From: Heptranchias perlo
Lineage: Eukaryota
NCBI RefSeq assembly: GCF_035084215.1
Contig: NW_027139612.1
Location: forward strand, 5,890,001-5,954,000
DNA length: 64,000 bases
Reading direction: 5' to 3'
The notes below the pieces were generated by a model. It searched no databases and was not told the DNA's origin. It saw only the letters and a program-made list of their open reading frames with translations. Below, piece after piece: positions 33,007 through 55,485 of the stretch. The translations under genes were made by a program, and so were the position numbers. The first letter of the stretch is position 1. The number at the start of each line of letters is the position of its first letter.

Positions 33007-33079
33007 TGGAGAATGCGGGCATCGATCCCGCTACTTCTCGCATGCAAAGCGAGCGCTCTACCATTTGAGCTAATTCCCC
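33007..33079 (-). tRNA. trnA-TGC: tRNA-Ala(TGC), intact, copy 1
   Basis: GGGGAATTAGCTCAAATGGTAGAGCGCTCGCTTTGCATGCGAGAAGTAGCGGGATCGATGCCCGCATTCTCCA: full cloverleaf, G3:U70 identity pair, T6 terminator. Confidence 0.93.
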
Positions 33080-34282
33080 TACTTTGCGAGTCCACTTGCC
33101 CTTCACAATAGTCGCTTCACACTCGCCTCCAAACAGCGCCACGAATTGCCACCTCCCTGAATTTTTTCAATACTTTGTTCCAATCCGCGGTATCGAGTAT
33201 TCGCAAGTGAGCAACCGCAGAACGGGAAGGCACAGTAATCGTGAATGATGCCGAGAAGAGCCCGAGCCTGCGGAACGCAGACGAGGTCATCGGAAAAGAA
33301 CAGCAGCCCGAGCTTGAGGAAACAGCGAGAGCTCTGTCTGTCTGTCGGTCTGTCTGACTGATGGAAGGCTGATTTGCCTGAAAGTGAGTGCGGTTTGACG
33401 TGTTGTTATTCAAAGGTACGCCCTGCTGGTGAGCAGAGGCAAGTGCTCGAGCAAAACAGCCGTTTTCGGGCAGACACAAAAAGCTTTCAGGTTTAAGAAA
33501 GGAAAGGAGTTCTCCTGTGCCTCAGCGCCAACATGTTAAGCTTTTGGCTGTCTGTAAAGTAAAGAAAACGGCCTTGAGCTAATTTCTGCTTACTCCAAAA
33601 GCACGTTCGCTAGTTCGAACCAAAAACCGAAGGATGACTTTTATCTGATAATTGTATTGCAGTCGTCCGCTGTACGAAGGGAAGCAGCAGGATTGCTCTC
33701 TTTGGTAAATATTCACTGTGCGCCTTTTGACACTCCCGGACTCGTGGAGTCACGTGTGCATGACCGAGACTGACTCATTTCCTGCTCAGACCGCAACGCT
33801 GTGGCAGTGTGAGCTGCTACTTTCTCTGCACACCGTGCAGCAGTGGATATCGTGTCTAATGACAAATCAGAAGATTGTCTGGACAATTCCTAGCTGACTG
33901 GATTGTTTTTGACAACTGTCCATCACTTTATGACTTTAGATAGCTTGCAAACTAACCTAATTGGCAGTGCTGCCTGGCAGTTTCCACCGTTCGTGCGCTT
34001 TTCACACAGCAGGGAGTATATTAGTTTTATTAACTTTGTAAATCCTCAGTTCAATCCACAGAAAAGATATCAGGGCCTGTGATGCTTTTTTCCATGTCTC
34101 ACTTCATCTTTCCATCTTTGCTAAACACTAAAATCAAAAACTTTTGCTTACTGCAGCACACCAAAAGATTTACTGCTCCTTGCCCTCTCTTCATCGAAGC
34201 TGAGGATTGACGTGGGTTCTGGATTTGCTGAAAACTGACACCATTTTTGTTGCGGGACAATTCCCCAAGGTAAAAAAGTGAG

Positions 34283-34355
34283 TGGAAAATGCGGGCATCG
34301 ATCCCGCTACTTCTCGCATGCTAAGCGAGCGCTCTACCATTTGAGCTAATTCAGC
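34283..34355 (-). pseudogene. trnA-AGC: tRNA-Ala(AGC) copy 2, acceptor stem disrupted
   Basis: 5' GCTGAAT vs 3' ATTTTCC gives two mismatches and loses G3:U70. Confidence 0.8.
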
Positions 34356-35580
34356 TGCTTAGCGAGATCAATTGCCCTTCACAATAGTCGCTTCACACTC
34401 GCCTCCAAACAGCGCCACGAATTGCCACCTCCCTGAATTTTTTCAATGCTTTGTTCCAATCCGCGGTATCGAGTATTCGCAAGTGAGCAACCGCAGAACG
34501 GGAAGACACAGTAATCGTGAATGATGCCGAGAAGAGCCCGAGCCTGCGGAAGGCAGACGAGGTCATCGGAAAAGAACAGCAGCCCGAGCTTGAGGAAATA
34601 GCGAGAGCTCTGTCTGTCTGTCGGTCTGACTGACTGATGGAAGGCTGATTTGCCTGAAAGTGAGTGCGGTTTGACGTGTTGTTATTCAAAGGTACGCCCT
34701 GCTGGTGAGCAGAGGCAAGTGCTCGAGCAAAAAAGCCGGTTTCGGGCAGAGACAAAAAGATTTCAGGTTTCAGAAAGGAAAGGAGGTCTCCTGTGCCTCA
34801 GCGCCAACATGTTAAGCATTTGTCTGTCTGTAAAGTAAAGAAAACGGCCTTGAGCAAATTTCTGCTTACTCCAAAAGCACGTTCGCTAGTTCCAACCAGA
34901 AACCTAAGGATGACTTTTCTCTGTTAATTGTATTGCAGTCCTCCGCTGTACTAGCTGAACGATCGAAGGGAAGCAGCCAAGATTGCTCTCTTTGGTCAAT
35001 ATTCACTGTGCGCCTTTTGACACTCCCGGACTCGTGGAGTCACGTGTGCATGACCGAGACTGACTCATTTCCTGCTCAGACCGCAGCGCTGTGGCAGTAT
35101 GAGCTGCTACTTTCTCTGCACACCCGAGACCAGTGGAGCAGTGGATTTCGTGTCTAATGACAAATCAGAAGATTGTCTGGACAACTCCTACCTGACTGGA
35201 TTGTTTTTGCCAACTGTCCATTACTTTATGACTATAGATAGCTTGCAAACTTACCTTATTGGTAATGCTGCCTGGCAGTCTCCACCGTTCGTGCGCTTTT
35301 CACACAGCAAGGAGTGCATTAGTTTTATTAACTTTGTAAATCCTGAGTTCAATCCACAGAAAAGATATCAGGACCTGTGAAGCTTTTTTCCATGTCTCAC
35401 TTCATCTTTCCATCTTTGCTAAACACCAAAATCAAAACCTTTTGCTGACTGCAGCACACCTAAAGATTTGCTGCTCATTGATCTCGATTTATCGAAGCGG
35501 AGGATTGACGTGCGTTCTGGATTTGCTGAAAACTGACACCATTTTTGTTTCGGGACAATTCCCCAAGGTAAAAAAGTGAG

Positions 35581-35653
35581 TGGAGCATGCGGGCATCGAT
35601 TTCGCTATTTTTCGCATGCAAAGCGAGCGCTCTACCATTTGAGCTAATTCCCC
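35581..35653 (-). pseudogene. trnA-TGC: tRNA-Ala(TGC) copy 3, T-arm/B-box and stems damaged
   Basis: T-stem GCGAA/CCCGC, plus anticodon-stem and acceptor mismatches. Confidence 0.8.
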
Positions 35654-53667: not shown

Positions 53668-53740
53668 TGGAGAATGCGTGCATCGATCCGGCTACTTCTC
53701 GCATGCAAAGCGAGCGCTCTACCATTTGAGCTAATTCCCC
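53668..53740 (-). tRNA. trnA-TGC: tRNA-Ala(TGC) copy 17, two T-stem mismatches
   Basis: T-stem GCCGG/CACGC. Confidence 0.68.
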
Positions 53741-54965
53741 TGCTTAGCGAGACCAATTGCCCTTCACAATAGTAGCTTCACACCCGCCTCCAAACAGCGC
53801 CACGAATTGCCACCTCCCTGAAATTTTTCAATGCTTTGTTCCAATCCGTGGTATCGAGTATTCGCAAGTGAGCAACCGCAAAACGGGAAGGCACAGTAAT
53901 CGTGAATGATGCCGAGAAGAGCCCGAGCCTGCGGAACGCAGACGAGGTCATCGGAAAAGAACAGCAGCCCGAGCTTGAGGAAACAGCGAGAGCTCTGTCT
54001 GTCTGTCGGTCTGTCTGACTGATGGAAGGCTGATTTGCCTGAAAGTGAGTGCGGTTTGACGTGTTGTTATTCAAAGGTACGCCCTGCTGGTGAGCAGAGG
54101 CAAGTGCTCGAGCAAAACAGCCGTTTTCGGGCAGACACAAAAAGCTTTCAGGTTTAAGAAAGGAAAGGAGGTCTCCTGTGCCTCAGCGCCAACATGTTAA
54201 GCTTTTGGCTGTCTGTAAAGTAAAGAAAACGGCCTTGAGCTAATTTCTGCTTACTCCAAAAGCACGTTCGCTAGTTCCAACCAGAAACCTAAGGATGACT
54301 TTTCTCTGTTAATTGTATTGCAGTCCTCCGCTGTACTAGCTGAACGATCGAAGGGAAGCAGCCAAGATTGCTCTCTTTGGTCAATATTCACTGTGCGCCT
54401 TTTGACACTCCCGGACTCGTGGAGTCACGTGTGCATGACCGAGACTGACTCATTTCCTGCTCAGACCGCAGCGCTGTGGCAGTATGAGCTGCTACTTTCT
54501 CTGCACACCCGAGACCAGTGGAGCAGTGGATTTCGTGTCTAATGACAAATCAGAAGATTGTGTGGACAACTCCTCCCTGACTGGATTGTTTTTGCCAACT
54601 GTCCATTACTTTATGACTATAGATAGCTTGCCAACTTACCTTATTGGTAATGCTGCCTGGCAGTCTCCACCGTTCGTGCGCTTTTCACACAGGAAGGAGT
54701 GCATTAGTTTTATTAACTTTGTAAATCCTGAGTTCAATCCACAGAAAAGATATCAGGACTTGTGAAGCTTTTTTCCATGTCTCACTTCATCTTTCCATCT
54801 TTGCTAAACACCAAAATCAAAATCTTTTGCTGACTGCAGCACACCTAAAGATTTGCTGCTCATTGATCTCGATTTATCGAAGCTGAGGATTGACGTGCGT
54901 TCTGGATTTGCTGAAAACTGACACCATTTTTGTTTCGGGACAATTACCTGAGGTAAAAAAGTGAG

Positions 54966-55038
54966 TGGAGAATGCGGGCATCGATCCCTCTACTTCTCGC
55001 ATGCAAAGCGAGCGCTCTACCATTTGAGCTAATTCCCC
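54966..55038 (-). tRNA. trnA-TGC: tRNA-Ala(TGC) copy 18, one T-stem mismatch
   Basis: T-stem GAGGG/CCCGC. Confidence 0.8.
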
Positions 55039-55412
55039 TACTTAGCGAGTCCATTACTTTATGACTTAAGATAGCTTGCAAACTGAACTAATTGGCAGTG
55101 CTGCTTGGCAGTCTCCACCATTCGTGCGCTCTTCACACAGCATGGAGTGCATTAGATTTATTAACTTTGTAAATCCTGAGTTCAATCCACAGAAAAGATA
55201 TCAGGACCTGTGAAGCTTTTTTCCATGTCTCACTTCATCTTTCCATCTTTGCGAAACAACAAAATCAAAAACTTTTGCTCACTGCAGCACACCAAAAGTT
55301 TTCCTGGAATTGACCTCTCTTTATCGAAGCTGAGGATTCATGTGGGTTCTGGATTTGCTGAAAACTGGCACCATTTTTGTTTCGGGACAATTACCTGAGG
55401 TAAATAATTGAG

Positions 55413-55485
55413 TGGAGAATACGAGGATCGATTCCACTCCTTCTCACATGCTAAGTGAGCGTTCTACCATTTCAGCTAACTCCGG
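55413..55485 (-). pseudogene. trnA-AGC: tRNA-Ala(AGC) copy 19, heavily degenerate
   Basis: Aligns to the array tRNA with many substitutions; anticodon loop TT-AGC-AT retained. Confidence 0.8.

What the first reader, a model, noticed from the sequence alone, without database searches (positions are those of the whole stretch)
33007..55485. One tRNA-Ala body, two anticodons: an isoacceptor switch captured inside a tandem array
Seen: intact copies 1 and 10 (TGC) differ from intact copies 7 and 11 (AGC) only at position 34. Overall, 12 TGC and 7 AGC copies are interspersed, and the most decayed copy is AGC. Known: AlaRS reads G3:U70, not the anticodon, so switches are tolerated; A34 is edited to inosine (reads GCU/C/A) whereas U34 reads GCA/G. 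From memory, the GGGGAATTAGCTCAAATGG body is the Ala-AGC type in mammals. Inference: a derived TGC allele has spread to a majority, so unequal crossover or conversion can tune the AGC:TGC dosage at a single locus.
Basis: partly seen in the sequence, partly recalled or inferred. Interest (0 to 1): 0.7.

Follow-up and report, generated by a model that had tools for sequence, protein, structure and literature searches.

The report
Alanine tRNA anticodon switch across arrays
In this genome, likely a shark's, alanine tRNA genes that differ only in the first anticodon letter (AGC or TGC) sit mixed in more than a dozen tandem arrays; the TGC form likely arose once in a founder array and likely drifts up and down by unequal crossing-over, a large example of a known process.

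Summary
Observation confirmed: 19 copies in a 1.3-kb unit, 12 TGC and 7 AGC, four differing only at base 34. The locus is not special. It is one of at least 12 duplicated arrays that start with the same decayed copy followed by a TGC copy, so the 'most decayed copy' is a shared border relic. Genome-wide AGC leads (313 to 261 exact matches; about 267 to 212 without a letter-identical 4-Mb duplicate). TGC share runs from 0.15 to 0.74 between arrays, and units are mosaics, so recombination reshuffles dosage; nothing shows it is tuned. In this window only 3 of 12 TGC and 4 of 7 AGC copies are structurally intact. AGC is likely ancestral (chromosomal genes, older short arrays and retrocopies are all AGC). 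A mutation peak just upstream, also on TGC copies, points to germline transcription; selection on the body is weak. Switched copies likely outnumber ordinary Ala-TGC genes about 2:1. Anticodon switching is well known, and the scan saw a similar valine array in another genome. Expression is untested.

The parts
33007..55485 (-). Tandem array, 18 units of 1276-1298 bp plus a border relic; each unit holds one tRNA-Ala and a decayed tRNA-Tyr
33007..33079 (-). Copy 1, TGC, intact
   Evidence: (61.1 bits)
34283..34355 (-). Copy 2, AGC, damaged (G3:U70 lost)
35581..35653 (-). Copy 3, TGC, damaged (T stem, B box)
36878..36950 (-). Copy 4, TGC, damaged (G18A, T stem)
38176..38248 (-). Copy 5, TGC, damaged (same as copy 4)
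39474..39546 (-). Copy 6, TGC, one T-stem mismatch
40752..40824 (-). Copy 7, AGC, intact
   Evidence: (58.3 bits)
42050..42122 (-). Copy 8, TGC, damaged (G18, G19, T stem)
43348..43420 (-). Copy 9, TGC, damaged
44635..44707 (-). Copy 10, TGC, intact
   Evidence: (61.1 bits)
45913..45985 (-). Copy 11, AGC, intact
47211..47283 (-). Copy 12, TGC, damaged
48498..48570 (-). Copy 13, AGC, U33C; mosaic unit (AGC-type start, then spacer 1.0% from TGC unit 10)
49796..49868 (-). Copy 14, AGC, intact; mosaic unit with a TGC-type spacer
51093..51165 (-). Copy 15, TGC, stems intact (A54C)
52371..52443 (-). Copy 16, AGC, stems intact (one G:U added)
53668..53740 (-). Copy 17, TGC behind an AGC-type leader (recombinant), T stem damaged
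54966..55038 (-). Copy 18, TGC, one T-stem mismatch; first copy after the border relic
55413..55485 (-). Copy 19, AGC border relic, no terminator; near-identical relic seen at the start of 8 other arrays
33080..33099 (-). Inner 5' flank (example of each unit's): mutation peak, 2.15 variants per site vs 0.87 in spacer
34936..34969 (-). Decayed tRNA-Tyr 5' part inside the unit (example; 14 of 18 units plus a partial unit at 32362 hit at this cut-off)
   Evidence: against the chromosomal Tyr-GTA of L003
55668..55757 (-). Longer tRNA-Tyr relic (75.6% over 90 columns) upstream of the border copy
55501..64000 (.). Upstream flank of the duplicated block, 98-99% identical in 7 other arrays
29025..32000 (.). 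Downstream flank, 99.7% identical in 2 other arrays

Best explanation
This array is one of at least 12 duplicated tandem arrays in which tRNA-Ala genes with one body carry either AGC or TGC; the TGC form likely arose by one A34-to-T change in a founder array and likely rises and falls by near-neutral unequal crossing-over and conversion, not by tuning. Steps. (1) Shown: the 1.3-kb unit is a Tyr-relic plus Ala pair whose body differs from the chromosomal Ala-AGC gene L005 at one base (45). (2) Inferred: T34 arose on one leader haplotype before the block was duplicated. (3) Shown: sister arrays with flanks 98-99.7% identical differ in length and allele order, and units are mosaics; inferred: unequal exchange does this. 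(4) Inferred: the genes, TGC copies included, have been transcribed by Pol III in the germline, which mutates them; selection on any one copy is weak, so about 4 in 10 are damaged. (5) From established knowledge: an intact TGC copy would still be charged with alanine (G3:U70) and would read GCA/GCG in place of the inosine-34 reader of GCU/GCC/GCA (decoding rules recalled).
For: Direction: the 3 chromosomal genes and 3 retrocopies found are AGC; 0 of 22 copies in short arrays are TGC; local diversity 0.037 in TGC, 0.051 in long-array AGC, 0.102 in short-array AGC. One origin: TGC needs 10 changes on a tree vs 64.7 shuffled; r2 with base 34 is 0.63-0.70 at -2, -12, -16, -39 and 0.01-0.14 beyond -400. 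Founder: 12 of 12 arrays traced to the 5' end begin relic-then-TGC. Turnover: TGC share 0.15-0.74 in 11 arrays, chi-square 40.3, 10 df. Transcription: inner 5' flank 43 variants in 20 sites vs 926 in 1063 (2.5x), the top 20-bp window of the unit, saturated at -16 to -6, as described for active genes (PMC6130373, passages); the flank of the dead Tyr is 0.55; singletons on TGC copies 16 in 92 leader-plus-body sites vs 63 in 1063 (2.9x); three array-type copies with short leader and trailer only lie on large chromosomes, one fused to a reverse-transcriptase frame.
Against: No RNA, ChIP or charging data were seen. All three retrocopies are AGC, and no exact TGC anticodon arm lies on contigs C1-C359. 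Tree support is poor (13 of 190 branches starred; starred branches force at least 2 changes), so repeat mutation is not excluded. AGC singletons show no leader peak (1 in 20 sites). Selection tests disagree: rare:common 49:1 in the body vs 346:59 in spacer (P=0.008), yet tolerated and disruptive variants do not differ in copy number (P=0.6). Copies are related, so all P values are too small. Longer arrays are richer in TGC (Spearman 0.68, n=11) and TGC copies are more often intact (120 of 182 vs 73 of 144), which strict neutrality does not predict.
Confidence: 0.62

Rival explanations
1. The arrays are now a silent tRNA-bearing satellite; the mutation peak is a relic of earlier transcription and the TGC copies add nothing to the tRNA pool.
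For: 137 of 332 sampled copies are damaged, and damaging variants reach 10-18 copies; the body is more variable than the spacer in long arrays (1.75x); in zebrafish the large tRNA clusters are almost fully methylated in embryos and copy number does not track tRNA level (PMC11574265, passages).
Against: Singleton excess on TGC copies; no CpG-transition excess in the spacer (0.46 vs 0.43 per site); only one common variant in the body besides base 34, and it makes a G:U pair.
Confidence: 0.2
2. Selection uses the arrays as a dosage dial, favouring more U34 alanine tRNA.
For: T34 is by far the commonest variant in the body (183 of 332 copies; C34 3, position 35 1, position 36 2); TGC copies are more often intact and enriched in long arrays; anticodon switching was adaptive in evolved yeast (PMC3868979, passages).
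Against: No set point between arrays; spacer variants reach the same frequencies (59 common ones); at least 116-118 ordinary Ala-TGC genes already exist; founder effects in related arrays explain the correlations.
Confidence: 0.12
3. TGC copies have several independent origins at a mutable base, or come from a separate old isodecoder.
For: 5 TGC copies sit behind the full AGC-type leader, one in each of 5 arrays; the tree needs 10 changes; the region is hypermutable.
Against: The reciprocal class exists (8 AGC copies behind the TGC-type leader); the ordinary Ala-TGC body differs at 5-6 anticodon-arm and 8-14 3' positions; none of the 100 listed of 118 ordinary matches has this stem; T34 is absent from short arrays.
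Confidence: 0.05
4. The allele mix is an assembly error.
For: The assembly holds a duplicate at an offset of 3,999,424 bases with 0 mismatches in 4 x 10 kb.
Against: Both alleles recur on at least 7 contigs with linked leader haplotypes. The duplicate inflates counts but does not create the alleles.
Confidence: 0.01

Closest known systems
Isoacceptor anticodon shifts (Rogers and Griffiths-Jones 2014, PMC3923123, passages and section 7 read; Yona et al. 2013, PMC3868979, passages read)
   Same: Single change at the first anticodon base, same amino acid, body of another isoacceptor. 39 of 44 isoacceptor shifts in the first paper are at this base; the second reports 4245 switches and intermixed human Val AAC and CAC genes. 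In this genome the ordinary Ala body is itself shared by TGC and CGC (24 and 13 of 37 genes).
   Different: The passages read describe single genes or a few copies; here the switched allele is in about 200 copies, interleaved with the parent in arrays.
Expanded, clustered tRNA loci of elasmobranchs (Squalomix, bioRxiv 10.1101/2025.06.08.657570, passages read; supplements closed) and zebrafish (PMC11574265, passages read)
   Same: Hundreds of clustered tRNA genes in a fish genome.
   Different: The passages read give counts and places, not allele mixing within units; anticodon tables in the closed supplements might already show high Ala-TGC counts.
Concerted and birth-and-death evolution of tandem Pol III gene arrays (5S rDNA type; PMC3123226 seen only as a search listing; mechanism recalled)
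   Same: Head-to-tail units, mosaics, length changes, many pseudogenes.
   Different: The marker that drifts here changes decoding.
Transcription-associated mutagenesis at tRNA genes (Thornlow et al. 2018, PMC6130373, passages read; PMC13010820, abstract only)
   Same: Peak in the 20 bases upstream, centred 10-15 bases out; excess rare variants in the gene.
   Different: Measured here among paralogues of one assembly, and the body is not clearly conserved.

Membership tests
Isoacceptor anticodon shift | Body closest to a tRNA with another anticodon | tested here: met
   1 difference from AGC copies; 13 or more from ordinary Ala-TGC genes
Isoacceptor anticodon shift | Same amino-acid identity kept | tested here: met
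   G3:U70 and A73 present; G3:U70 is the main determinant (PMC9976931, passages); charging itself not measured
Isoacceptor anticodon shift | Direction shown by outgroup or synteny in other species | tested here: inconclusive
   In-genome outgroups are all AGC; no related genome is held, and reads could be laid on the spacer only
Isoacceptor anticodon shift | Switched gene yields a mature, working tRNA | not testable with these tools
   No tRNA-seq available; 3 of 12 window and 120 of 182 sampled TGC copies are structurally intact
Tandem gene array under concerted / birth-and-death evolution | Head-to-tail, near-identical units | tested here: met
   Units 2-18 differ by 0.5-5.6%
Tandem gene array under concerted / birth-and-death evolution | Mosaic units and copy-number change between sister arrays | tested here: met
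   Linkage decay and four gametes; 9 to 62 units per array
Tandem gene array under concerted / birth-and-death evolution | Length polymorphism between individuals | not testable with these tools
   One assembly only
Actively transcribed tRNA gene (TAM signature) | Variation peak in inner 5' flank | tested here: met
   2.5x spacer; saturated at -16 to -6
Actively transcribed tRNA gene (TAM signature) | Gene body under purifying selection | tested here: inconclusive
   P=0.008 in one test, P=0.6 in another
Selected dosage regulator | Ratio held near a set point | tested here: not met
   0.15-0.74 across 11 arrays; a genome-wide set point was not testable

The most novel reading that the evidence does not exclude
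A single wobble-base change on an inosine-type alanine tRNA body (with its unusual A54 T loop) has been amplified until it is about two thirds of all Ala-UGC gene copies of this genome; it is expressed in the germline, and selection on the summed arrays shifts GCA/GCG decoding from inosine to U34 readers. That would be a vertebrate tRNA pool remodelled within one lineage by satellite-like dynamics, with dosage varying between individuals.
Probability: 0.12. Interest if true: 0.6.

Novelty: new member of a known kind. Interest (0 to 1): 0.32.

Why it matters
It shows how one anticodon switch can reach hundreds of copies through array turnover without any sign of need, so tRNA gene counts in such genomes say little about codon demand. 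With about 480 near-identical genes split by one base, it is also a ready natural test of whether tRNA dosage in a vertebrate is selected or drifts, and of whether a body evolved for I34 works with U34. It is not a new mechanism.

Tried and rejected
No RNA holder was listed for the unit; the RNA-labelled contigs laid on the spacer were mostly under 95% alike and may be DNA, so they say nothing on expression. Zebrafish supplements searched by isodecoder name gave names but no sequences (10 files searched, one not); another paper's supplement was unreadable; so 'is this TGC body known in other fish' stays open. Seven paper searches listed nothing that, by title or abstract start, describes this switch; only top rows were shown. 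The first body-versus-spacer diversity estimate was dropped because unit 1 ran into flanking DNA. 'Variants private to TGC' was set aside as biased by linkage and replaced by singletons. Copy 19 as evidence of ancestry within this array: rejected (shared relic). Dating from unit divergence: not attempted, no rate in hand. Pfam found no domain in 3 of 4 frames next to retrocopies, so the LINE label for L001 and L004 rests on weak matches to repeats in the window and on recall. The look-up for look-alike windows in other genomes was empty.
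Full report
Observation. The window holds 19 minus-strand copies of one 73-nt tRNA-Ala body between 33007 and 55485, 12 with TGC and 7 with AGC; copies 1 and 10 differ from 7 and 11 only at base 34. Each sits in a unit of 1276-1298 bp that also holds a decayed tRNA-Tyr. By my criteria (all 21 stem pairs Watson-Crick or G:U, 16 conserved bases kept, a T4 run within 20 bases downstream) 3 of 12 TGC and 4 of 7 AGC copies are intact. The genome is 3.25 Gb. That it is a shark comes from earlier notes of this scan and from my recall of its repeats; I did not test it.

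The locus is one of many. An exact 27-letter anticodon-arm pattern occurs 261 times with TGC and 313 times with AGC. Contig C1317 carries a duplicate at an offset of 3,999,424 bases with 0 mismatches in 4 of 4 stretches of 10 kb, likely an assembly artefact. Counting by hand from the lists, it adds about 49 TGC and 46 AGC, leaving about 212 and 267. I sampled 343 copies in 26 regions; 11 with 10 or more mismatches were dropped, leaving 332 (182 TGC, 144 AGC, 6 other). Nine of the 11 dropped are one near-identical relic, the window's copy 19. All 12 arrays traced to their 5' end begin with a decayed copy followed by a TGC copy; 7 other arrays share the window's upstream flank at 98-99% and 2 share the downstream flank at 99.7%. 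The switch therefore predates the duplication of a founder block (inferred).

Direction and origin. Six AGC matches lie on large chromosomes. Three are stand-alone genes with G45 and their own flanks, one beside an intact Tyr-GTA; three carry the array's A45 with only a few bases of array-type leader and trailer. No exact TGC arm lies on contigs C1-C359. Short arrays are the most diverse and hold 0 TGC in 22 copies. TGC is tightly linked to one leader haplotype (r2 0.63-0.70 at four sites within 39 bases) and the linkage decays with distance. On a tree of 194 local haplotypes with base 34 left out, TGC needs 10 changes against 64.7 for shuffles, but support is low and recombination distorts it. 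One origin is the simplest reading, not a proven one. The ordinary Ala-TGC genes are a different body (118 pattern matches; 5-6 arm and 8-14 3' differences) with the same anticodon loop in 35 of 37 genes, and that body is itself shared between TGC and CGC, even in a pair 413 bases apart (L083). One body with two anticodons is thus ordinary for alanine in this genome.

Turnover. Units are mosaics: window unit 13 is AGC with a spacer 1.0% from TGC unit 10, while AGC units 7, 11 and 16 are 0.5% from each other and 4.0-5.6% from TGC units. All four gametes occur (5 TGC behind the AGC leader, 8 AGC behind the TGC leader). In 11 arrays (one may be cut at its 3' end) length runs from 9 to 62 units and TGC share from 0.15 to 0.74. 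Against pure drift, longer arrays are richer in TGC (Spearman 0.68) and TGC copies are more often intact (120 of 182 vs 73 of 144); the arrays are related, so these are weak.

Transcription and selection. Active tRNA genes show a variation peak in the 20 bases upstream (PMC6130373, passages). Here that window has 2.15 variants per site against 0.87 in 1063 spacer sites, the highest 20-base window of the unit, while the flank of the dead Tyr has 0.55. Singletons on TGC copies are 2.9-fold enriched in leader plus body; on AGC copies 1.8-fold, with no leader peak. Selection is unclear: rare to common variants are 49:1 in the body and 346:59 in the spacer, but tolerated and disruptive variants have similar copy numbers. 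In zebrafish, big clusters are methylated and copy number does not predict tRNA level (PMC11574265, passages), which keeps the silent-array rival alive.

Mechanism. Shown: alleles, mosaics, shared borders, variable ratios, mutation peak. Inferred: one A34-to-T event, block duplication, unequal exchange, germline transcription. From established knowledge: alanine identity rests on G3:U70 (PMC9976931, passages), so charging should survive; I34 and U34 decoding rules are recalled.

Known and new. Isoacceptor shifts at the first anticodon base are common (39 of 44 in PMC3923123, section 7; 2540 of 4245 in PMC3868979, passages). Large tRNA clusters in sharks are reported (bioRxiv 10.1101/2025.06.08.657570, passages; its supplements were closed and may hold anticodon counts). 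The scan noted a valine array with three anticodons on one body in another genome. What stands out is scale: about 212 switched copies against about 116 ordinary Ala-TGC matches, counted with two different patterns, so the ratio is rough. The spacer family is also present in contigs of a second organism at mostly 80-95% likeness, so the unit is older than this species; its anticodon there is unknown.

Verdict. Real, partly as interpreted; a new member of a known kind; interest 0.32.

Noticed in passing
L046:4524-4595 (+); window 58710-58781 (-): The window's intact tRNA-Trp-CCA has 7 paralogues in the fetched loci; one reads TCA at the anticodon with one more change next to it, and ARAGORN labels it SeC. 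It is a Trp body with a UGA-reading anticodon, a possible stop suppressor or a source of false selenocysteine tRNA counts.
   Followed up: partly
G000:C1317, about 1.3-4.7 Mb vs 5.3-8.7 Mb: Duplicate at a constant offset of 3,999,424 bases, 0 mismatches in 4 x 10 kb; likely an assembly artefact that inflates gene counts.
   Followed up: partly
L001:1970-2145, L002:1955-2027, L004:1942-2014: Array-type tRNA-Ala copies with short leader and trailer joined to LINE-like DNA on large chromosomes; L001 has a tRNA-Ile-AAT 28 bases upstream, a likely double capture.
   Followed up: partly
arrays L021-L037: C69T, giving G4:U69 beside G3:U70, is in 55% of TGC and 8% of AGC copies in long arrays; G4:U69 is itself an alanylation signal (PMC9976931, passages).
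   Followed up: no
C1403, C1317 536 kb and C1349 2.685 Mb arrays; L016; L041-L045: CGC copies of the same body exist: near the 3' end of three sister arrays and inside two others, a second switch that stayed rare.
   Followed up: partly
window 1-29027: 30-bp satellite, 972 copies, 83% matches, ending 4 kb from the tRNA array.
   Followed up: no
window 56726-56803 and 61664-61735: Two weak tRNA-like relics below the Rfam gathering score in a flank rich in tRNA remains and LINE-like pieces.
   Followed up: no
L021-L028 vs L029-L037: Arrays on C555 (54 units) and C1317 (62 units) share flank genes on both sides; they may be two alleles of one locus, which would be length polymorphism within one animal.
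   Followed up: partly
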